DNA of 64,000 nucleotides. Origin: an uncultured archaeon (GTDB taxonomy: Archaea; Asgardarchaeota; Thorarchaeia; Thorarchaeales; Thorarchaeaceae). The stretch covers positions 64,001 to 128,000 of the forward strand of contig CAZLEV010000005.1 in the NCBI GenBank assembly GCA_964558645.1. Reading direction: 5' to 3'. The notes under the pieces are model-generated. The model saw only the letters and a list, made by a program, of their open reading frames with translations. It was not told the origin of the DNA and did not search any database. Position 1 is the stretch's first letter, and each line of letters starts with the position of its first letter. Of the stretch, positions 15,111 through 23,697 are shown in pieces. Made by a program: the position numbers and the translations under genes.

Positions 15111-15147
15111 CAAGTCATCAGTTAGACACCTTTGAGTGTGCAAAGCG

Positions 15148-15606
15148 TTGAAACGGAAGATACGATTCCTGAAGCCTTCAGATTTGGATGATGTGGAGAG
15201 AATAGAGAGCTTGTCATTTCCCGAGCCGTGGGACTTCGAGATTTTTGAGATTCTGGCGTCGTACCACGGCAGGGCGAAGAAGAGAGGGGGCGAGAAACTG
15301 TACATGTATGTGCTCGAAGAGAACGGCGTGACGGGGTATGTGGTCTGGGAAGAATCTGCAAACGAAGGACATATTCTAAACCTAGCAGTTCGAGAAGACA
15401 AGAGAGGCAGTGGTCGTGGAAGAGAACTGCTTCTCTTCGCCCTCAGAAGACAAGAGCTTAGTGGAATGACTTCTTGCATCCTCGAATGCAGAGAAAGCAA
15501 TGCAATTGCACGACGTTTCTATGAGAGCGTTGGCATGACCCAAGTGGATCGTGTCGCCGGATACTACGGAGATCAGGACGCCATCATCTACAGATGGGAC
15601 TTCTAG
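15148..15606 (+). CDS. rimI: RimI/Ard1-like GNAT N-acetyltransferase
   Basis: IESLSFPEPW, HILNLAV, RGSGRG, LECRESN..ARRFY and YYGD..DA. Start (TTG) is approximate. Confidence 0.88.
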   Translation: MKRKIRFLKPSDLDDVERIESLSFPEPWDFEIFEILASYHGRAKKRGGEKLYMYVLEENGVTGYVVWEESANEGHILNLAVREDKRGSGRGRELLLFALRRQELSGMTSCILECRESNAIARRFYESVGMTQVDRVAGYYGDQDAIIYRWDF

Positions 15607-18600
15607 CTGCGTCTTGATTCGACCAGACGCGGCCCGAGTACATCGTGATACAGCCTCAGATAGGCAGGGTCAGATGAAACCAACGCAACTGGACGACCTC
15701 CGTCTGTCGAACCACCTAGTAACAACTCCTTCTGGTCACAGAGCGCCATATCATACGGGTGGTCAGTTTCCCAGACTCTCCAGCCGGCAAGATTCTTGAG
15801 AGCAGCGGGTTGTTCTTCCGATCGGGGAACCACCAGAACCTTTCTTCGCGGAGTATTCACCTTCGCGAGCTTCTTAAGATCCAAGCTCTCAACGTTGACA
15901 ACAGATACGAGTACGGATTCTTCTGCACGCTCAGCCATCTCTACCATGTGAGCATAGATTTCATCTGCACCTGACACATACCACGTCTTCTCGCTCGGCA
16001 GAGTCAGTACAGACTTGCTTGCTGTGTGGATTGCGTCCAGAACATCCTTAGTATTCGTTGCGAGTTCCTTAGCTGTGTTGACGCTCTCCTCGATTCCCTG
16101 CTTGAGTTCCTTGCCGTCGTTTCTTATTGACGAAAGCAAGGTCTTTGCTGACTTGTCAGTGTCACTCTCAAAATGGTTGAGCAGATCATTGCGTTTCTCT
16201 GTCAAGGTTGACGTCTTGGTAGAAGCGTCGTTATTGGCCTTGGTGACGACTTCTCTCAGCTCCGTACCTTTCACACCCAGCTCGTTCCGCATCTCCTCGA
16301 CGAGCTGATATGCATCATTGCTCAGCTTGGTCTTGAGTTCGAGAGCAAGATTCTCAAACCTTCGAGACGCCGTCAGATTCGAGGACACAACTGCCTCACG
16401 GGTCTTCTCAAAGAGATCTTCACGGCGCCGCTCTAGCCTATTTGAGGCGTTCTCGACCAAGGATGTGTAGTCTGTTGTCAAAGACTCAACAGAATCCAAG
16501 TACTCCTCTCTGTCAGAAGTGAGAGACTCGATTATATCGGACTTTCTCTCCTGTGTCCAGACTCCCGCATCTTCGAGGTTCGCTTCAACCGTAGCTGTCA
16601 GTTTCTTTTCGAGGTTGGATACAGCCTCCGTTCCTGTCCTCAAGCGAGTCTTCGTGGCCTGTTGGAATTCATTAAGTCGGGCCTTGAATGACGAGCTGGT
16701 CTTCTCCAACAAGGTGTTTACTGACTTCTCGAACTGCTCCACTGTATGTTCGCCTCGATCACTGATACCATCCGAAACTTCCTCTGATGCTTTGGTTAGA
16801 TTCTGGCTTGCAAGCTGGATATCCTCAGTCAACTTGTTTCCCAAAGCCCCCGAGGAGGTAGACACATTCTCCAGCGCGTTTTCAACCCATTGCGCGGCTG
16901 CATCGAACGCTTCGTTTGCCTCGTCCCTTCGTTGCTCAATGGCTGCAGATATCTCGTCATTCACATCCCTGCGGATATCAATGATCTCCTTTTCACGCGC
17001 GACGAGCTGTTCCTGGTATGACTCCATACTTTCGATAGACCTATTGCTGATTTCAGTTGATAGTCTGTCAATCTTCTTGGTTGTGTCTGCAAGCAGACGC
17101 TGTTTGGCGTCAGCCTGCTCTGAAGCGTAGTTGTCCACAGTTGACCGCATACTCGCTGAAGTGCGAGCAAAGGAATTCTTGACTGATTCCCGAGTATCTG
17201 CGACTCTGTCCTGGATGTTGGACTGAGCACCCGTGACTGAGGTCTCGAACTCGCGAGACGTCTGGACAAGGTTTTCGCCCATCTGTTTTATCGTTCCGTG
17301 CCGTATCTGATCAAGATTGTCCTCTACAGCTTGGAGATTGGACTCGATCATTGAATGGGTACCGGCTAGTTTCTCAGATAGCTGAGCCTGCTTTTCGACA
17401 CTGAAGTCATTCAGGCTCTTGCGAGTCATGCTAACAGAGTTCACAATATCGTCAATACGGAGAGCAATCTCTGAAGTATACTCCTGCTGCAGCTTGAGGG
17501 AGTCTGCCTGTAGTGCTTCAATCTCTGTCTTGATGGAATTCTTGAATTCAGTATGAGCAGAGCTGATCAGATCGCGTGATTCCATCGTCTGACTGGTGAT
17601 AAGACCATTAAACGTTGATTCAAGGCTCTGGGTCAGGGCAATGAATTGACGAGTCATCTCCTCAAGATTGAGATGAAACTCGCCTCGAATCTCTTCGGCC
17701 TGACGGTCGATGCGTTGAACTTGATCATCAATGGTCGAATCAACCTCTTTCTGCACTCTATCGGCCTGAGAAGCGAGTGTTGATACGCTCTGTGCTAACC
17801 TGTCATCCAGTTGGGAGTTCAGCGTCTGGTAAAGATTCTTTGTTTCTTTGATGTTCTTCTGGATCTTTGAGCTGATCTCCGTGACAGTCTCTTCGAGTGT
17901 TTTGCCGAACCCGCTCTCCAAGTCGTTGACAAAGCGTGATACACCCGACAGGACTGTTTCATTCTTTGTCTTCACCGAGCTCTGTATCGTTCCGAATGAG
18001 GACTTGAGTCTGCTACTCATACTGCTCGTCAAGGACTTGAGCTCATCAGCCTGAACAGACAGAGTGTCATTGACATCGTTGATAACACCCTCCAGATTGG
18101 AGAAGACATCTTGTTCGCCTTCTTCAGCCCAAGAATCAAGCTTGGCCTGTAGCTTTGCCCTGACCTCCTCGATGCTTGCTTGCTCCGAAGCATTCTGCTC
18201 ATCGAGTAGTCTGATCACTTCAGCACGAGCTTCTGTAACATGTGCTCCAAATCTATTCTGCATACCAGCGACCAAGGTCTTCAGTTCATCATGATTCTCT
18301 GAAATCATAGACGCAAGACGTTCGAGATGACTTCCCAGTGCATTCTTGATGTCCTCCAAGTAGGCCACATCTGTGGCCTTAATCTGCTCAAACTGTGCAG
18401 CTATCGACTGACCCGAGGAGGCCATGTCAGCTTCCACTTCATCTTTCCATTTCTCAACCTCGTCAACAAGCTCGTCGGTTAAGGTCGCCGTAGTACCTAT
18501 TCTGTTCCCTGCCACACCAGCATATTCGCGAAAGTGTTCCCTGTTCACGTCAACAAGCTCGCTCAACGACTTCTCCGCGCTGACACGATTATTGCGAAGT

Positions 18601-19511
18601 TCCTCCGAGATATTCTCGACAACTTGGGCCAGACCCTCATCTACAGAGCCTAGGTTCTCAGTTGTACGTGAGACCGAATCCTCTATGGAAGACTTCATGT
18701 TTGCAGACATCTTCTCCAAAACACTCTGTAACGCCACCTGGGAATCAGTCATTGCTTTCTCGACCACCGTCTTGGCCTGGTCAACCAAGGCAACCGCCTT
18801 TTCTCTGAGTTGAGATGCATTCTCTGATGCACTTGTCTTGTCCTTGTCCAGTGTTTCTGAGAATAAACCCTCGATCTCCTCCAGAGAGGAATGCATCGTC
18901 GCCTGAATGGAATCGAGCTCAGCCTGCAGCGTGGAGAGCTGCTCGCCTAGGTCACTATCGAGGGTAGCACCCATTGCGTCCAATACGGACTCTACTCGCT
19001 CGGAGAACCCTGTCAAGACTTTGTCAGCAACACTGCCAACAATCTCAATCTGGGATTGTACATTGTCAAGCATCTCGTCTTCATATACATCGAGTTCGTC
19101 CTTTAAACCGGCAACGGCCGATTTCCGACCTTCCGTGAAATCCGTGGATGTTTCTTTAGCCAACTCCAGTTGCTTGTCGATCCTGTTCTGTATTTGGTCT
19201 TCAAGAGAACTGGCCTCTTCAACAAAGGATGACAAAGTGCTTCCGACGGCCAAACTAGGTGAAATGGCCTGATAGACGGGCACAATCCCCTCAATTTCTG
19301 TAACAAGCCCCTTCTTCACCAATCGGCTTAGCGTTCTCTTGACACTGCTGAGGGTGTCACCGGTTATCACTGAGAGAGCTCCGGCCGTCATGTTGCCACC
19401 AACATAGACTGGTAACAATACTTCAGCCTCTTTCTTCGTTACTCCCAGATTCTTCTCTATCGTCGACATTTGTTTCTCCAATGCTGTATCTCCACTCATA
19501 CTGCATTCCAC
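15603..19511 (-). CDS. TrmB-family protein: wHTH, about 1,080-aa helical rod, and C-terminal TrmB effector/PLD-like domain
   Basis: N-terminus LGVTKKEAEV...LSRLVKKGLV...VYQAISP; C-terminus WYVSGADEIYAHMVEMAERAEESVLVSV. Confidence 0.8.
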   Translation of the reverse strand: MECSMSGDTALEKQMSTIEKNLGVTKKEAEVLLPVYVGGNMTAGALSVITGDTLSSVKRTLSRLVKKGLVTEIEGIVPVYQAISPSLAVGSTLSSFVEEASSLEDQIQNRIDKQLELAKETSTDFTEGRKSAVAGLKDELDVYEDEMLDNVQSQIEIVGSVADKVLTGFSERVESVLDAMGATLDSDLGEQLSTLQAELDSIQATMHSSLEEIEGLFSETLDKDKTSASENASQLREKAVALVDQAKTVVEKAMTDSQVALQSVLEKMSANMKSSIEDSVSRTTENLGSVDEGLAQVVENISEELRNNRVSAEKSLSELVDVNREHFREYAGVAGNRIGTTATLTDELVDEVEKWKDEVEADMASSGQSIAAQFEQIKATDVAYLEDIKNALGSHLERLASMISENHDELKTLVAGMQNRFGAHVTEARAEVIRLLDEQNASEQASIEEVRAKLQAKLDSWAEEGEQDVFSNLEGVINDVNDTLSVQADELKSLTSSMSSRLKSSFGTIQSSVKTKNETVLSGVSRFVNDLESGFGKTLEETVTEISSKIQKNIKETKNLYQTLNSQLDDRLAQSVSTLASQADRVQKEVDSTIDDQVQRIDRQAEEIRGEFHLNLEEMTRQFIALTQSLESTFNGLITSQTMESRDLISSAHTEFKNSIKTEIEALQADSLKLQQEYTSEIALRIDDIVNSVSMTRKSLNDFSVEKQAQLSEKLAGTHSMIESNLQAVEDNLDQIRHGTIKQMGENLVQTSREFETSVTGAQSNIQDRVADTRESVKNSFARTSASMRSTVDNYASEQADAKQRLLADTTKKIDRLSTEISNRSIESMESYQEQLVAREKEIIDIRRDVNDEISAAIEQRRDEANEAFDAAAQWVENALENVSTSSGALGNKLTEDIQLASQNLTKASEEVSDGISDRGEHTVEQFEKSVNTLLEKTSSSFKARLNEFQQATKTRLRTGTEAVSNLEKKLTATVEANLEDAGVWTQERKSDIIESLTSDREEYLDSVESLTTDYTSLVENASNRLERRREDLFEKTREAVVSSNLTASRRFENLALELKTKLSNDAYQLVEEMRNELGVKGTELREVVTKANNDASTKTSTLTEKRNDLLNHFESDTDKSAKTLLSSIRNDGKELKQGIEESVNTAKELATNTKDVLDAIHTASKSVLTLPSEKTWYVSGADEIYAHMVEMAERAEESVLVSVVNVESLDLKKLAKVNTPRRKVLVVPRSEEQPAALKNLAGWRVWETDHPYDMALCDQKELLLGGSTDGGRPVALVSSDPAYLRLYHDVLGPRLVESRRS

Positions 19512-19534: not shown

Positions 19535-20350
19535 CTATTCGCTTGACCTCTCTCCCACTAGTTCAGAGATCTTCACAAAGACCTTGGCAAGAACGCCCGT
19601 TTCGATCGATCTGTCCGGCCCTTCGCTTATCGTCTCGACTATCACATGTGTGCTATCATCTAGGCGCTGCACAACGAAACTCTCGAAATGCGACTCCAGA
19701 ATCTCACCAAGTTCCTTCTCCATGTCGGAGGGGGGCACATCGCCCGCATTGATGTCCAACTCCCACCAGTTGATTGTCAGATCAGTAGACTCTGCTTCCA
19801 GATCGTAATATCGTGCAAACAGGTCCACGTACATACGGAATGTGTCATAATCGTCGATAGCATATTCTTCAGGATTGAGAACAACAATTCCACGAGAGAA
19901 ATCGAAATGGAACAAGAGGTCATCGCCCATGATAAGGAAGAGGTCATTGGCTCTCACTCGGGCCATTCGACTCCATATCTTGGTGAATCTTGATGTGAAC
20001 TGCCTTATCGAACTCATCCGCAGCGCAGAAAGCATGTCCTTTATGGGAAGACGTCTGTCACTCATACGTCGACCCTTACGCTCGAGAATGTACCTTCGCA
20101 GCTGTCCAAGGTACTGTGAATAGCAGAATGACGGCAGATCCTGAGTCTCTACACCGAGTTCGATGAACATGTTCAAGAGGTTTCTGTCTTTGCAGGATGG
20201 CCGAACAGTACAGCTCAGCCTGTCTTCTTGGCAAGCCTTGCACTTCTCCTCATAAAGGGAGATCAGCTCGGCAGCTAGCTCATTGTCTGCCGACTTGCCA
20301 AGGAGTCTAACGCGTTCAGCTAGTTCGTCTTTGTGCTGTTTAAGCTGCAT
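19535..20350 (-). CDS. Hypothetical protein with an N-terminal Cys cluster (putative Zn site)
   Basis: CKAC-x6-C-x5-C and FCY; ends 23 nt before the start of the TrmB-rod gene. Confidence 0.75.
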   Translation of the reverse strand: MQLKQHKDELAERVRLLGKSADNELAAELISLYEEKCKACQEDRLSCTVRPSCKDRNLLNMFIELGVETQDLPSFCYSQYLGQLRRYILERKGRRMSDRRLPIKDMLSALRMSSIRQFTSRFTKIWSRMARVRANDLFLIMGDDLLFHFDFSRGIVVLNPEEYAIDDYDTFRMYVDLFARYYDLEAESTDLTINWWELDINAGDVPPSDMEKELGEILESHFESFVVQRLDDSTHVIVETISEGPDRSIETGVLAKVFVKISELVGERSSE

Positions 20351-20487: not shown

Positions 20488-21507
20488 CTAGTCGTCACTG
20501 ACTTCTTTCAGCTTTGTAGTCCATGTGCGTATGTCCTTGTTCAGTCTTGCAATGTCATTCTCATTCAACGTAGCAGTTGGCGGGTATGACTTCAGCTCTC
20601 GCGCCACTTTCCCGACTTGATGCAAGACAGGTGTGTGCATTGAAATCAGCTCTGTAAGCTCATCACGCACCCGTTCAAGAGCAGAACCCATATCTCTGGC
20701 CTCAGTCTTCGAATCGACCTTCTTCAGAAGGGTATCCATAAGTTCATCAACTGTTGATTCTGAAACGACCTTACTAGGCTCCGCGGGCTCCTTGGGGCTC
20801 TTCTTTTTAGCCTTAGACTTTTTTCCCGACTCTCGCGGTGATGACTCTGCAGAGTCGGCAAGTTGTTGAACAGATGAAATCACTTCATCAATCTTGTCAA
20901 GAGACTTGTTGTACTTCCTTTCGAGATCATCAAGCTGACGGACAAGGATTCCAACGATCTCTTTCGTATCTCCCTGCGCACTGGCCAGATCCTTCACTCT
21001 CTCTTCTAGAGTGGAGAGGCTGGCCACATATTGCTGCAAATCATCGATCTTCTTCCCCAACACCTCCGACTCCTTGCTCTCGCTGAGCTCCTCAACCTTT
21101 GACTGGAGCTCTTCTAGAAATTCGCTCATGCTCTCAATCTTTGCCTCAACATCAACGAGTTGTTTCTGGGTCTGATCTTCTGCCATCTTGGCGAGGATAC
21201 TCTGGAGCGATGATGTCACTGCGTTGACTTTTTCATCTATCTCTTCAATCTCCTTAGAGTTGTCCAGAGATGAAAGCTTCTTGTCAAGCTCCTTCATATT
21301 GTCCAGAAGATCATCCACTTTGGAGAGAGCTGCTACTTCTTTCTGTACGGCCTTGACCTCATCTGTCAGGGAATCAACAGTCTTGCTCATGTCAGCTAAA
21401 TCCGAGAGTGGTTTAAGTTCCTTGAATAGCTTATCTACTTCTTCAGACAGCTTGTCGACTTTTTTCTCAAGATTGTCCATTTGCTTTGACTGGTCTGTCG
21501 ACATCAT
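20488..21507 (-). CDS. Coiled-coil protein with a C-terminal helical domain
   Basis: About 220 aa of heptad-like K/E/L/D sequence, a basic linker, then a helical bundle. Confidence 0.8.
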   Translation of the reverse strand: MMSTDQSKQMDNLEKKVDKLSEEVDKLFKELKPLSDLADMSKTVDSLTDEVKAVQKEVAALSKVDDLLDNMKELDKKLSSLDNSKEIEEIDEKVNAVTSSLQSILAKMAEDQTQKQLVDVEAKIESMSEFLEELQSKVEELSESKESEVLGKKIDDLQQYVASLSTLEERVKDLASAQGDTKEIVGILVRQLDDLERKYNKSLDKIDEVISSVQQLADSAESSPRESGKKSKAKKKSPKEPAEPSKVVSESTVDELMDTLLKKVDSKTEARDMGSALERVRDELTELISMHTPVLHQVGKVARELKSYPPTATLNENDIARLNKDIRTWTTKLKEVSDD

Positions 21508-21611: not shown

Positions 21612-22439
21612 TTACCCCTCCCGGATTATTTCAATACCCAGCTGTTCTAGCATCGGAATGAACATATCACGTTGCTTTGCATTCGTTCCCTTCCAGTCAA
21701 CTACGGCGGCAATGACCTTCTCTGCGGACCGATGAATCATCTGATCCACGACCTCCTCCGTTATGCCGTCCAGAGCATACTTGGGAGCCATATGCCCGAC
21801 CCTGTATTCCCCCGAGAGAACTAGTTTGTTGAACTTGCTAGCGTAGTGAGTGCCCCCAAATCCTATGACGCTTGCAGTCCCAATGGGAGCATCCGCACAC
21901 CTCATGACAGCCTCAGCAACGACACTTGCCCCCTCTTCATGCGTCCAGTAGTGTTCATCACTACCGAGCTCTACAAAGAGCATTGGTGTATCAAGTGCGG
22001 TGGGTCCGTGATGAGTTACCTCAAGCGAAACGTCGAAATCCGAGAGATTGCGCTCGTTTCTCTCGTGGTAAAGGGTTTGAAGTGCTACTGAGACCAAAGA
22101 TGCAACTGATACAGACAGCGAGTAGGGACGGCCTCCAAATGCAGCCTCAGCTCCAAGATTACCCGTGCTGTGAACAAGCAGAGATGGTTTTCCTGATTCG
22201 GAGCGATGACGAGAACAGAAAATGAAGACCTCAGCTTCCAAGTATCTCTCAAGATGGTCGGAATAGATGAGATCGCGATTAGACGTGACGAGCTGAACTG
22301 AGCCATTGTGCGCCATGACAGGATGACCGTCGAATTCACTCTCGGTCTCAGTGAACCCATGTTCATCTATGAGAGCTTGTCTTATCGTCTGGCTGGCCAA
22401 GTCATGCTCAGACGTCACGAGTATCCTCAGAACCAACAC
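21612..22439 (-). CDS. dtdA: D-aminoacyl-tRNA deacylase (archaeal DTD2/GEK1)
   Basis: SRHRSESG, VHSTGN, EVTHHGPT, FVELGS, GFGGTHYA and GHMAPKY. Confidence 0.93.
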   Translation of the reverse strand: MLVLRILVTSEHDLASQTIRQALIDEHGFTETESEFDGHPVMAHNGSVQLVTSNRDLIYSDHLERYLEAEVFIFCSRHRSESGKPSLLVHSTGNLGAEAAFGGRPYSLSVSVASLVSVALQTLYHERNERNLSDFDVSLEVTHHGPTALDTPMLFVELGSDEHYWTHEEGASVVAEAVMRCADAPIGTASVIGFGGTHYASKFNKLVLSGEYRVGHMAPKYALDGITEEVVDQMIHRSAEKVIAAVVDWKGTNAKQRDMFIPMLEQLGIEIIREG

Positions 22440-23697
22440 CTTCAGGTAAGTTAACGATGCACTCCTTGAGGAGGGGCTCCAGAGTCACACCCAGATCAAT
22501 CGTGACTTTCTTGCCCAGATTCTTGGCTATCTCAGCCTCAATGCGCCTCTTGAAGTCCTCAGCTTTTTCGAGCTGCTTCTTGATGTCGTCGCGAATTCGA
22601 AGCAGGTCGTTGTTATGATACTGAACATTCTTCTCTGCTTCTCGGACCATTCCCTCAAGTTCCGCGGTCTTACGGTATATCTCGGACCCGGCATACTCCT
22701 TCCTCTTGCGGTCTATCTCCTTTGCCTTGTCCTGGTATTCCTGTAGCTCGCCTTTCTTGATGAGCTCTATCTCCTCTATAGCCCTTCTTGCCAATCGATC
22801 TTTCAATGGGAATGCATCGCGCTCGATGGCGGTCTCCATCGCCTGCAAACCCTCCAGTAATCCCGGACAGCCATCGGGTTCCTCCACGATAGCCTCGAAG
22901 GGGTCATCGAAATAGTCTGTCAGGGCCTTCTGGCCAGATGGACTCACTCGGACACCGGTATCGTGCTGCAGAAACTTCTTGATAGGCTTCTTGAGTGTGT
23001 TCAGTTTCATCCTCAGAACGCTGCCGATATGCTCGGACTCTTCATCAAGACTGAGAACCTCAGAGACATTGGATTCGTTCTTGAACTTCTCCAGTTCTTT
23101 CTTTGCAGCCAGATAGTCCTCTTCCGCCTGTTTGATTTTCATCTTCGTCTGGCGTATGTCTTCCTGAATAATGTCCTTGCTGAAGGTGAGTTCCCGTAGG
23201 GTTTGGATGCGTTCAGCCGTACGTTCCAAGTCTTGTACCCAGCTGTACTCGTACAGGAGCTTCCCAATGATCTTCAGTTCCTTGCTCAGCTCTTTCATGT
23301 AATCATCCAGCTGCTTTATGGTGCCCTTGTGCTTCTTGTCCATGCGCTTGATCCAGCGAGCACCAGCCCCCCAGAGTTCTTGGATGAAGTGTTGAATCTC
23401 CTCCATCATCTGCTCAGTACTCTCGTAAGATATCTCTTGGCTGACGTCAAAATCCTCAACGACACTGTCAATCTTCAGGGCAAAACGTACTGCTATGCCT
23501 ACTGACTCTTGGTCTTCATCTTCGGCACTTGCTTCCCTCAGTTCTGATGCAACTGCCTGAACGTCCTTAAGGGCCCTGTCAACATTGCGGTAACTCCTCT
23601 CAGCCTTCTTCCTGAAGTCCTGCGACTTCTTCTCCAGTTCTCTGTTGTACCATAATTCCAGCTGCGCAAGAGTCAGTTCCGTCATTCCCGAAGACAC
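22408..23697 (-). CDS. Coiled-coil-rich hypothetical protein
   Basis: 429-aa K/E-rich helical ORF whose stop overlaps the dtdA start. Confidence 0.8.
   Translation of the reverse strand: MSSGMTELTLAQLELWYNRELEKKSQDFRKKAERSYRNVDRALKDVQAVASELREASAEDEDQESVGIAVRFALKIDSVVEDFDVSQEISYESTEQMMEEIQHFIQELWGAGARWIKRMDKKHKGTIKQLDDYMKELSKELKIIGKLLYEYSWVQDLERTAERIQTLRELTFSKDIIQEDIRQTKMKIKQAEEDYLAAKKELEKFKNESNVSEVLSLDEESEHIGSVLRMKLNTLKKPIKKFLQHDTGVRVSPSGQKALTDYFDDPFEAIVEEPDGCPGLLEGLQAMETAIERDAFPLKDRLARRAIEEIELIKKGELQEYQDKAKEIDRKRKEYAGSEIYRKTAELEGMVREAEKNVQYHNNDLLRIRDDIKKQLEKAEDFKRRIEAEIAKNLGKKVTIDLGVTLEPLLKECIVNLPEGVGSEDTRDV

What the first reader, a model, noticed from the sequence alone, without database searches (positions are those of the whole stretch)
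15603..19511. TrmB regulator stretched by an ~1,080-residue proline-free helical rod
Seen: a TrmB-type wHTH (aa ~15-85) and a TrmB effector/PLD-like domain (last ~130 aa) are separated by an amphipathic helical region with no Pro and no Cys. Known: in canonical TrmB these domains are joined by one short dimerisation helix. Inference: a rod roughly 80 nm long if folded back, or 160 nm if extended, linking DNA binding to a distant sensor. Candidate chromosome-organising, tethering or intermediate-filament-like protein.
Basis: partly seen in the sequence, partly recalled or inferred. Interest (0 to 1): 0.7.

Follow-up and report, generated by a model that had tools for sequence, protein, structure and literature searches.

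The report
Giant fixed-length TrmB-headed helical rod
A Thorarchaeota (Asgard) gene encodes a relative of the archaeal chromatin protein TrmBL2 whose short pairing helix has grown into about 1,070 residues of unbroken 11-residue-repeat helix. Its two halves pair head-to-tail into a strut whose length is conserved to the residue across Asgard lineages, and I found no paper describing it.

Summary
The gene (window 15603-19499, minus strand, 1298 aa from the ATG) has three parts:
- a TrmB winged helix;
- a helical stretch of 1086 residues with no Pro or Cys;
- a C-terminal PLD-like domain whose best structural match is TrmBL2.

The rod is not a heptad coiled coil. It is about 96 hendecads (period 3.665) with one skip residue.

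Sixty-two orthologs at 17-90% identity show no net indel in the rod. The wing-Tyr to C-domain-Trp spacing is exactly 1097 residues in Thorarchaeota, a sister family and Helarchaeota-type homologs.

Several lines show that the two halves pair antiparallel about F619 (i+j = 1238-1239): coevolution replicated in two disjoint sequence sets, charge complementarity, matching of the hydrophobic stripes, and the position of the AlphaFold helix break. This is the pairing mode of TrmB's own short dimerisation helix, and the dyad sits at the same offset from both domains.

So the two end domains lie together, not at opposite ends. The protein is either an ~80 nm hairpin or an ~160 nm swapped dimer with a head at each end.

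Function is untested. I read it as a fixed-length nucleoid-associated strut that works with a conserved upstream 271-aa partner.

This scan met the same Asgard-wide family earlier on other genomes.

The parts
15603..19499 (-). Whole gene, 1298 aa from the ATG at 19499 (stop codon 15603-15605). The ORF is open back to a GTG at 19511.
   Evidence: All 62 orthologs align from the MS... start.
19257..19451 (-). TrmB-type winged helix-turn-helix, residues 17-81. The TrmB DNA-reading pair Y50/D51 is replaced by K54/R55. The wing Tyr is Y76.
   Evidence: Pfam PF01978 scores 34.1 bits. The ungapped alignment to TrmB 3qph has E 9.4e-6.
17655..19244 (-). Rod arm 1, residues 86-615: hendecad (a, d, e, h) amphipathic helix, net charge -53.
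18495..18602 (-). Region of the single one-residue register shift (skip) in arm 1, about residues 300-335.
   Evidence: The hendecad phase jumps by about +98 degrees here and nowhere else. The stripe match moves from c=1239 in the outer arm to c=1238 in the inner arm.
17544..17690 (-). Central block, residues 604-652, the most conserved part of the rod. It holds a Phe ladder F608/F619/F630/F652 at 'a' positions and N631-G632. F619 is the symmetry centre.
   Evidence: The AlphaFold2 helix break at 616-622 has pLDDT below 50. The coevolution centre is 619-619.5.
16044..17633 (-). Rod arm 2, residues 623-1152: hendecad helix, net charge about -28, which pairs antiparallel with arm 1 (i+j = 1238-1239).
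15606..15992 (-). C-terminal PLD-like domain of TrmBL2/TrmB type, residues 1170-1298. It has no sugar-binding subdomain and no conserved HxK motif. The anchor Trp is W1173.
   Evidence: Foldseek top hits are TrmBL2 5bpd/5bpi/5bqt/5box, then PLD-fold proteins, then TrmB 3qph and 2f5t. Nine of 23 family C-domains hit PF11495, best E 2.4e-6. The profile's top PDB hit is 3qph.
19535..20350 (-). Conserved upstream gene 'up271': 271 aa, four Cys at 37-53, a well-folded alpha plus alpha/beta protein with no recognisable family. It is the likely partner.
   Evidence: It is directly upstream in all 30 ortholog loci with enough flank, and also next to rod genes in other Asgard families. AlphaFold2 pLDDT is 88.6 with no clear fold match.
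20488..21507 (-). Conserved upstream coiled-coil gene 'cc339': 339 aa, with a basic linker and a small C-terminal helical domain.
   Evidence: It is found upstream of up271 in 28 ortholog loci. Pfam gives only sub-threshold coiled-coil matches. Its hydropathy period is about 3.33.

Best explanation
SHOWN. The protein is a member of the TrmB/TrmBL2 lineage. The family's short pairing helix (about 25 residues in TrmB) has been expanded symmetrically into a rod of about 1,070 residues. The rod is acidic (net about -81), free of Pro, and built of about 96 hendecads plus one skip residue. Its two halves run antiparallel and in register about F619 (residue i faces residue 1238/1239 - i). Core positions pair a with a', e with h' and h with e'. 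A ladder of invariant Phe (608, 619, 630) sits on the symmetry centre.

Any single indel would put the two halves out of register. That explains why the rod has no net indel in 62 orthologs, and why the Tyr76-to-Trp1173 spacing is exactly 1097 residues in lineages that share under 20% identity.

INFERRED TOPOLOGY. The same contacts fit two forms. I give about 55% to a TrmB-like two-chain antiparallel dimer. This would be a strut of about 158 nm with a head at each end, made of the wHTH of one chain and the PLD-like domain of the other. I give about 45% to a closed hairpin with an arm of about 79 nm, a conserved Phe-rich tip and both domains of one chain at its base.

INFERRED FUNCTION (about 40%). 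By descent from the non-specific DNA-binding chromatin protein TrmBL2, the heads hold DNA, using Lys54/Arg55 in place of TrmB's sequence-reading Tyr/Asp. The stiff acidic rod acts as a fixed-length spacer or bridge in the nucleoid. It would hold two DNA segments, or DNA and a partner bound at the conserved centre, a set distance apart. It probably works with the co-transcribed 271-aa protein and the 339-aa coiled-coil protein. It is not a sugar-responsive regulator.
For: Domains:
- PF01978 is above the gathering score.
- The N-terminus aligns to TrmB 3qph at E 9.4e-6, ungapped.
- The C-domain's best structural matches are TrmBL2 at E 2e-6, then PLD-fold proteins and TrmB.
- Nine of 23 family C-domains hit PF11495, best 2.4e-6.

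Hendecads:
- The spectral peak is at 3.665 with power 764, against 1.65 at 3.5.
- The phase is constant from residue 82 to 1130 except for one +98 degree step.
- Core positions are a, (d), e and h.

Length:
- There are no net rod indels in 62 orthologs.
- The spacing is 1097 in 36 of 39 anchored Thor orthologs, in L033, L034 and L036, and in 28 of 77 anchored proteins of the wider family.

Antiparallel pairing:
- The summed MI on antidiagonals peaks at i+j = 1239 (z 9.6-10.5, background sd about 2.2).
- Two disjoint sequence subsets each pick 1238 out of 1900 candidates (z 6.4 and 7.1).
- Separate windows along arm 1 pick 1235-1248.
- The per-sequence charge product is most attractive at 1237-1242, with a minimum at 1239 (z -3.25).
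- The hydrophobic stripes face each other at 1239 in the outer arm and 1238 in the inner arm.
- AlphaFold2 breaks the helix at 616-622.

TrmB precedent:
- TrmB dimerises through an antiparallel coiled coil (F81/I91', F84/L88') with swapped DNA-binding domains (PMC4158304).
- The offset Y+W-c is 12 in TrmB and 10-11 here.

Centre:
- Phe is present at 608, 619 and 630 in at least 51 of 57 proteins of the 1097 class.
- Pro clusters fall at the predicted centre in other length classes.

Operon: up271 and cc339 are conserved upstream.
Against: - No experiment exists for any member of the family.
- DNA binding is only inferred. The wHTH is weakly basic (net +1, pI 8.0). TrmB's DNA-reading Tyr is lost here. 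From my manual reading of the sequences, several distant homologs have acidic or neutral residues at those positions.
- Hairpin and two-chain dimer cannot be told apart by coevolution. The AlphaFold2 model is of low confidence (pLDDT 67, pTM 0.26) and its coordinates could not be inspected.
- Individual coevolving pairs are noisy (Neff 28). Only sums along antidiagonals are significant, and some windows prefer 1257-1264.
- The tip profile is not recognisable in the most distant homologs.
- The partner protein gave no functional clue.
Confidence: 0.6

Rival explanations
1. Extended parallel in-register coiled-coil dimer of about 160 nm, with both wHTH domains at one end and both C-domains at the other.
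For: Most long homodimeric coiled coils are parallel. Parallel in-register contacts (i with i) cannot be seen by coevolution, so they are not directly excluded. The helix propensity is continuous through the centre.
Against: - The replicated antidiagonal coevolution at i+j = 1238-1239 has no explanation in a parallel dimer.
- Neither does the charge complementarity at the same register, or the special centre that falls exactly midway between the domain anchors.
- A parallel dimer would tolerate 11-residue indels, yet none occur.
- TrmB's own pairing helix is antiparallel (PMC4158304).
Confidence: 0.08
2. Apolipoprotein-, perilipin- or synuclein-like lipid-surface helix. On this reading the 11/3 amphipathic helix lies flat on a membrane or lipid particle, perhaps as an antiparallel 'double belt', and the TrmB domains are adaptors.
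For: - Pfam Apolipoprotein A1/A4/E (PF01442) scores 114 bits against a gathering score of 90.
- The family profile hits ApoA-IV 3s84 at 1.6e-7 and also ApoA-I and ApoE.
- An 11/3 periodicity is typical of lipid-bound helices, and ApoA-I belts also pair antiparallel (general knowledge).
Against: - The hydrophobic stripe is narrow: three strong positions plus one weak one in every 11.
- The rod's net charge is about -81 and its pI is 4.6.
- There are no Pro punctuations and no class-A arrangement of Lys at the polar/apolar border.
- Core positions face core positions at the coevolving register, as expected for helix-helix packing.
- The apolipoprotein match can be explained by shared periodic composition.
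Confidence: 0.07
3. An ordinary sequence-specific TrmB-type transcription factor whose long coiled coil serves only for oligomerisation or as a physical sensor (temperature, ionic strength), with no ruler or structural role.
For: Both TrmB domains are present, and some databases label members as TrmB regulators. Coiled-coil thermosensors exist (general knowledge).
Against: - The sugar-binding subdomain is absent.
- The sequence-reading Tyr50/Asp51 are replaced.
- Conservation of a 1097-residue spacer to the residue, at under 20% identity, is hard to explain by oligomerisation or sensing alone.
- The closest structural relative is the chromatin protein TrmBL2 rather than a specific regulator.
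Confidence: 0.15
4. The middle folds as a compact globular helical repeat (spectrin- or bundle-like) rather than as a rod.
For: There are weak sub-threshold Pfam matches to spectrin-like repeats. AlphaFold2 puts one extra break at 513-526.
Against: - One coherent hendecad phase runs over about 1050 residues with a single one-residue step.
- No longer-period repeat appears in the spectrum, and there is no internal sequence repeat by self-BLAST.
- AlphaFold2 gives three helices of 413, 89 and 540 residues.
- Pairing follows one antidiagonal along the whole length.
Confidence: 0.03

Closest known systems
TrmBL2 (TK0471 / PF0496; PDB 5bpd, 5bpi, 5bqt, 5box), a nucleoid-associated protein of Thermococcales
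   Same: The domain order is the same: wHTH, then pairing helix, then a PLD-like C-domain without the sugar-binding subdomain. TrmBL2 is the best structural match of the C-terminal part (E 2e-6). It binds DNA non-specifically and shapes chromatin (PMC4158304; PMC11840125 abstract).
   Different: TrmBL2 is 264 aa; this protein is 1298 aa, with about 1057 extra residues in the connecting helix. The DNA-reading Tyr is replaced by Lys. DNA binding is untested here. The C-domain belongs to a separate subfamily of only 565 representatives, almost all on long rods.
TrmB of Pyrococcus furiosus (PDB 3qph, 2f5t)
   Same: The N-terminus aligns without gaps (E 9.4e-6). The antiparallel pairing of the connecting helix is the same, and the dyad sits at the same offset from the wing Tyr and the C-domain Trp (12 against 10-11 residues; PMC4158304).
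   Different: TrmB has a sugar-binding beta-barrel subdomain (G320, E326) and sequence-reading Y50/D51. Its two wHTH domains sit side by side on a palindrome. Here they would be either about 160 nm apart or on separate hairpins.
SMC / Rad50 / MukB arms and chemoreceptor (MCP) signalling hairpins
   Same: All have long antiparallel coiled coils with terminal domains brought together, discrete length classes with matched arms, and a most-conserved distal tip or centre (general knowledge). There is also a weak Foldseek match to MukB.
   Different: This protein has no ATPase head, no hinge or zinc hook, and no Walker motifs in it or in its neighbours. Its rod is pure hendecad rather than heptad-based. 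These are analogies, not homology.
Apolipoprotein A-I / A-IV / E (PF01442)
   Same: Both have 11/22-residue amphipathic periodicity, and the Pfam score is above threshold. Apolipoproteins show antiparallel helix pairing in their dimers and belts (general knowledge).
   Different: The rod has no Pro-punctuated 22-mers, is much more acidic, has a narrow hydrophobic stripe and carries TrmB domains at both ends. The similarity is most likely convergent.

Membership tests
TrmB family (DBD PF01978 plus EBD PF11495) | N-terminal TrmB-type winged helix-turn-helix | tested here: met
   PF01978 scores 28.1 bits on the whole protein and 34.1 bits on the isolated N-terminus, against a gathering score of 25.6. 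The 3qph hit has E 9.4e-6.
TrmB family (DBD PF01978 plus EBD PF11495) | Amphipathic helix after the wHTH that pairs antiparallel | tested here: met
   Coevolution, charge and stripe matching place the register at i+j = 1238-1239. TrmB pairs F81/I91' and F84/L88' (PMC4158304). The offset from the domain anchors is 10-11 here and 12 in TrmB.
TrmB family (DBD PF01978 plus EBD PF11495) | C-terminal PLD-like (N-terminal) half of the effector domain | tested here: met
   This protein alone scores only E 0.05-0.07 against PF11495 positions 3-93. However, 9 of 23 family members hit it (best 2.4e-6), and the AlphaFold2 model matches TrmBL2, TrmB and PLD folds with probability 1.0.
TrmB family (DBD PF01978 plus EBD PF11495) | Sugar-binding C-terminal subdomain (G320/E326 of TrmB) | tested here: not met
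   The protein ends about 125 residues after W1173, and PF11495 is matched only over positions 3-93 of 233. TrmBL2 also lacks this subdomain (PMC4158304). The protein is therefore filed with the TrmBL2-like branch, not with the sugar-sensing TrmBs.
TrmB family (DBD PF01978 plus EBD PF11495) | DNA-reading Tyr50 (and Asp51) in the recognition helix | tested here: not met
   The ungapped alignment puts K54/R55 at these positions. MreA, an accepted family member, also lacks the Tyr (PMC4158304), so this does not exclude membership. It does mean that sequence-specific reading like TrmB's cannot be assumed.
TrmBL2-type chromatin protein | Non-specific dsDNA binding and high abundance on the nucleoid | not testable with these tools
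   This needs EMSA, ChIP or proteomics of a Thorarchaeon.
SMC / Rad50 / MukB | ABC-type ATPase head split between the N- and C-termini | tested here: not met
   Pfam and NCBIfam give no ATPase match. The end domains are a wHTH and a PLD-like domain.
Exchangeable apolipoproteins (PF01442) | Pfam score above the gathering threshold | tested here: met
   The score is 114.3 bits against 90, over 7 stretches. I judge this to reflect compositional and periodic similarity.
Exchangeable apolipoproteins (PF01442) | Pro-punctuated 22-mers and a class-A amphipathic face that binds lipid | tested here: not met
   There is no Pro in the 1086-residue stretch. The stripe is narrow, with no Lys enrichment at the border. 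The net charge is about -81. Lipid binding itself was not testable.

The most novel reading that the evidence does not exclude
The family is an Asgard-wide, nucleotide-independent molecular ruler for the chromosome. On this reading a TrmBL2-derived DNA clamp at each end of a rigid 160 nm strut (or at the base of an 80 nm arm whose conserved Phe-rich tip docks the 271-aa partner) sets a fixed distance between DNA segments, or between DNA and a cell structure. That would make it part of the still unknown nucleoid-organising or segregation machinery of the closest archaeal relatives of eukaryotes.
Probability: 0.25. Interest if true: 0.88.

Novelty: new variant of a known kind. Interest (0 to 1): 0.76.

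Why it matters
How Asgard archaea organise and segregate their chromosomes is unknown. This is a near-universal gene of Thorarchaeia: 79 of 85 genomes of the family have it, one ortholog per genome in most, alongside a shorter paralog. It has relatives across Loki-, Hel-, Hod- and Baldr-archaeal lineages.

It joins a chromatin-protein head to a strut that spans a sizeable fraction of a small archaeal cell. Its length has been held to the residue over deep divergence, which points to a distance-setting role.

For structural biology it may be the longest and most regular hendecad coiled coil so far noted: about 96 repeats, one skip and no indels. It is also a clean natural example of a short antiparallel dimerisation helix expanded symmetrically about its dyad. 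If the function is ordinary, the protein is still a useful model for ruler-type coiled coils.

Tried and rejected
- Heptad coiled coil: rejected, because the power at period 3.5 is about 1.7 against 764 at 3.665.
- Internal sequence repeats or recent duplication: self-BLAST found none, and no longer period appears in the spectrum.
- Hairpin apex at the invariant N631-G632 (i+j = 1263), my first idea: the main register is 1238-1239, and 1257-1264 appears only as a shoulder in some windows.
- Symmetry of conservation peaks about the centre: not clear.
- Tip profile searched in distant homologs: recognisable only in the sister family.
- Quantisation of length classes in units of 11 or 22: not general. 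The spacings 883, 1029 and 1329 do not fit, although 1097 = 40 + 96x11 + 1 and 1559 = 40 + 138x11 + 1 do.
- Partner up271: Pfam, PDB sequence search, the ESM Atlas, Foldseek and VIA-align gave no family or convincing fold.
- The search for related loci with the C-domain alignment failed for lack of a conserved stretch.
- The 726-744-aa proteins of family f22 that matched the rod's N-terminal part are a different family.
- STAND ATPase operon reported by earlier notes for Heimdall-group homologs: there is no Walker A motif in the three upstream genes here.
- Literature searches found nothing on this family. The term sets were TrmB + coiled-coil + Asgard; apolipoprotein + Asgard; hendecad + archaea; and Asgard + winged helix + chromosome segregation.

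Full report
WHAT IS THERE

The window comes from a Thorarchaeota-type Asgard genome; the named homologs are Candidatus Thorarchaeota. An uninterrupted ORF lies at 15603-19511 on the minus strand. Every homolog starts at the ATG at 19499, which gives 1298 aa, and I number from there.

Pfam finds a TrmB winged helix, with 28.1 bits on the whole protein and 34.1 bits on the isolated N-terminus against a gathering score of 25.6. It also finds an above-threshold Apolipoprotein A1/A4/E match spread over the middle (114 bits). The N-terminus aligns without gaps to P. furiosus TrmB (3qph, E 9.4e-6, residues 15-91 against TrmB 11-87). A stretch of 1086 residues has no Pro or Cys.

THE C-DOMAIN

On its own it only grazes PF11495 (E 0.05, profile positions 3-93 of 233). 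I aligned 23 C-domains from across Asgard genomes (A2). Nine of them hit PF11495 individually, the best at 2.4e-6, and the profile's top PDB hit is TrmB 3qph.

I ran AlphaFold2 on residues 99-1298 with 63 orthologs. The C-domain folds as an alpha/beta domain with pLDDT 72-86. Foldseek ranks TrmBL2 first (5bpd, 5bpi, 5bqt and 5box; E 2e-6 to 1e-5), then PLD-fold proteins (NucT, Zucchini, PLD3, Nuc, FAM83), then TrmB 3qph and 2f5t.

The domain stops about 125 residues after W1173, so the sugar-binding subdomain of TrmB is absent, as in TrmBL2 (PMC4158304). The only columns conserved in at least 90% of the 23 sequences are T, W, R, D, E and P. None forms an HxK motif, so I read the domain as a non-catalytic PLD-like module.

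THE ROD IS HENDECAD, NOT HEPTAD

The hydropathy spectrum of residues 96-1170 has one peak, at 3.66 residues (11/3), with power 853; the next peak is 83. On the alignment-averaged profile the peak is 764 at 3.665, against 1.65 at 3.5. The local phase is constant from about residue 82 to 1130, apart from one step of about +98 degrees (one residue) near 300-335.

Per 11 residues the core has three strongly hydrophobic positions, a, e and h (Leu, Ile, Val, Phe), and one small or semi-hydrophobic position, d (Ala, Thr, Leu). The rest is Glu, Ser, Thr, Asp and Lys. The rod carries a net charge of about -81 and has pI 4.6, while the wHTH is near neutral to slightly basic. Self-BLAST finds no internal sequence repeat, so only the periodicity is repeated, not the sequence.

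LENGTH CONSERVATION

A search of 400 Asgard genomes found a full-length ortholog in 79 of 85 genomes of the window's own family. It also found one in the sister family of the same order, at 22% identity by that search. I collected 62 orthologs, most at 25-37% identity and the sister-family one at 17% in the alignment. None has a net insertion or deletion between residues 86 and 1168; all length variation is at the extreme termini or in the C-domain.

I then took two anchors that align to TrmB: the wing Tyr (Y76, equivalent to TrmB Y72) and the C-domain Trp (W1173, equivalent to TrmB W112). The spacing between them is exactly 1097 residues in the following:
- 36 of 39 Thor orthologs in which both anchors could be found;
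- the sister-family protein L033;
- two proteins of another Asgard family, L034 and L036, one at 19% identity. A 1316-aa representative of this length class is labelled Helarchaeota;
- 28 of 77 anchored proteins of the wider family.

Other length classes exist, with spacings of 883 (a Thorarchaeal paralog, also present on contig 12 of this genome), 1029, 1329, 1559, 761-769 and others. All of them show 3.66-3.68 periodicity.

THE TWO HALVES PAIR ANTIPARALLEL

I computed reduced-alphabet mutual information with average-product correction on 58 gap-free orthologs (Neff 28). I summed it along antidiagonals (i+j = c), using all other values of c as the empirical background.
- The sum peaks at c = 1237-1239, with z 9.6 against a background sd of 2.1. 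The next unrelated peak is 4.7.
- A 12-class alphabet gives 1239 with z 10.5. Two disjoint sequence subsets each pick 1238 as the best of 1900 candidates (z 6.4 and 7.1).
- Separate windows along the first half mostly pick 1235-1248 by themselves.
- An independent statistic, the per-sequence product of charges on antidiagonals, is most attractive at 1237-1242, with its minimum at 1239 (z -3.25 among 1100 values).
- At these registers the hydrophobic stripes face each other, pairing a with a', e with h' and h with e'. The best match is c = 1239 for residues 92-300, and there is a local maximum at c = 1238 for 340-600. That is exactly the one-residue skip seen in the phase track.
- AlphaFold2 breaks the helix at 616-622 with low confidence.

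The centre (619-619.5) lies in the most conserved block of the rod, 604-652. Invariant Phe at three successive 'a' positions (608, 619, 630) are arranged symmetrically there: 608+630 = 619+619 = 1238. They are present in at least 51 of 57 proteins of the 1097 class, and within one residue of the predicted centre in the Helarchaeota-type homologs.

In other length classes the centre predicted from the two anchors coincides with rare Pro residues. Four of the five rod prolines of L049 lie at 434-443 against a predicted centre of 444. P590 lies against 587 in L044, and P872 against 873.5 in L038.

LINK TO TrmB

The TrmB review (PMC4158304, summarising Krug et al. 2013) states that TrmB dimerises through a coiled coil of helix alpha5 with the pairs F81/I91', F84/L88', L88/F84' and I91/F81'. 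These pairs are antiparallel, with i+j = 172, and the DNA-binding domains are domain-swapped.

In TrmB, Y72 + W112 - 172 = 12. Here, Y76 + W1173 - 1238 (or 1239) = 11 (or 10). The symmetry centre therefore sits at the same place relative to both domains.

The Asgard rod is best described as TrmB's own pairing helix expanded symmetrically about its dyad. The extra length is 1097 - 40 = 1057 = 96 x 11 + 1, which matches about 96 hendecads plus the one skip observed. This arithmetic could be a coincidence and does not hold for every class.

WHAT STAYS OPEN

The contacts i+j = 1238 fit two forms equally well: a two-chain antiparallel dimer (about 1066 residues x 0.148 nm = about 158 nm, with a wHTH(A)+C-domain(B) head at each end) and a closed hairpin (about 79 nm).

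For the dimer:
- the TrmB precedent;
- a helix-compatible, strongly conserved centre with an 'a'-position Phe exactly on the dyad;
- the low confidence of the AlphaFold2 break.

For the hairpin:
- all known very long antiparallel coiled coils (SMC, Rad50, MukB, chemoreceptors) are intramolecular;
- register setting is easier for a hairpin;
- some other length classes have Pro- or Gly-rich centres.

I put the odds at about 55:45.

FUNCTION (INFERENCE)

The closest relative, TrmBL2, is a non-specific DNA-binding chromatin protein and an SMC roadblock in Thermococcus (PMC4158304; PMC11840125 abstract). Here TrmB's DNA-reading Y50/D51 are K54/R55, which is compatible with backbone binding but is not proof of it.

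The rod is too acidic to lie on DNA or on membranes. Its length is conserved to the residue across lineages that share under 20% identity. I therefore read the protein as a fixed-length nucleoid-associated strut or bridge rather than a metabolite-responsive regulator.

The gene order cc339 -> up271 -> rod, with a convergent GNAT gene downstream, is conserved in all ortholog loci with enough flank. up271 homologs occur in 298 of 400 Asgard genomes and lie directly upstream of rod-family genes in several other Asgard families. This makes up271 the prime candidate partner. It folds confidently (pLDDT 88.6) but resembles nothing informative.

DISTRIBUTION AND NOVELTY

The C-domain profile finds only 565 representatives among 1.84 billion proteins, almost all at the C-terminus of long proteins. 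All named members are Asgard: Thor-, Loki-, Hel-, Hod- and Baldr-archaeal, plus 'Promethearchaeota'. They are annotated as hypothetical, HTH-domain or TrmB proteins, or mislabelled as RmuC or SbcC. Four literature searches found no description of the family.

After finishing the analysis I looked up this scan's earlier notes. The same family had been met in several other Asgard genomes, and their follow-ups reached compatible readings: a TrmBL2-like, fold-back or antiparallel hendecad rod, found only in Asgard. Those are unchecked AI notes, not independent evidence. The STAND-ATPase operon they report for Heimdall-group members is not present here.

This protein is a member of the TrmB/TrmBL2 lineage with an unprecedented architecture, so I class it as a new variant of a known kind.

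Noticed in passing
window 19535-20350 (-): A 271-aa protein with CxxC-x6-C-x5-C (residues 37-53) and a confident AlphaFold2 fold (pLDDT 88.6) matches no Pfam family and no convincing PDB fold. Homologs occur, mostly as a single match, in 298 of 400 Asgard genomes and are often directly upstream of the rod gene.
   Followed up: partly
window 20488-21507 (-): A 339-aa acidic coiled-coil protein is conserved upstream of up271. Its hydropathy period is about 3.33 (10/3) rather than 3.5 or 3.67. It has a Lys-rich linker (GKKSKAKKKSPKEP) and a small C-terminal helical domain.
   Followed up: partly
G000 contig 12, about 113379-116600 (-) (loci L002, L003): This is a paralog in the same genome with the same architecture but a shorter rod (open frame 1181 aa). 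Its relatives in other Thorarchaeia have a Tyr-to-Trp spacing of 883.
   Followed up: partly
window 22408-23697 (-): A 429-aa, largely helical, charged protein with no Pfam family lies upstream of the D-aminoacyl-tRNA deacylase gene (21612-22439). It has no Walker A motif.
   Followed up: no
loci L041-L043 (another Asgard family, f22): Proteins of 726-744 aa begin with a CxxC-containing N-terminus (MYLFK..YTCKLC) followed by a coiled coil. They matched the first third of the rod only through coiled-coil similarity. They lack the TrmB C-domain and have weak periodicity, so they are a different family.
   Followed up: partly
window 15136-15606 (+): A GNAT acetyltransferase gene converges on the 3' end of the rod gene, with the stop regions overlapping. 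It keeps this position in about 59 ortholog loci, including the sister family.
   Followed up: partly
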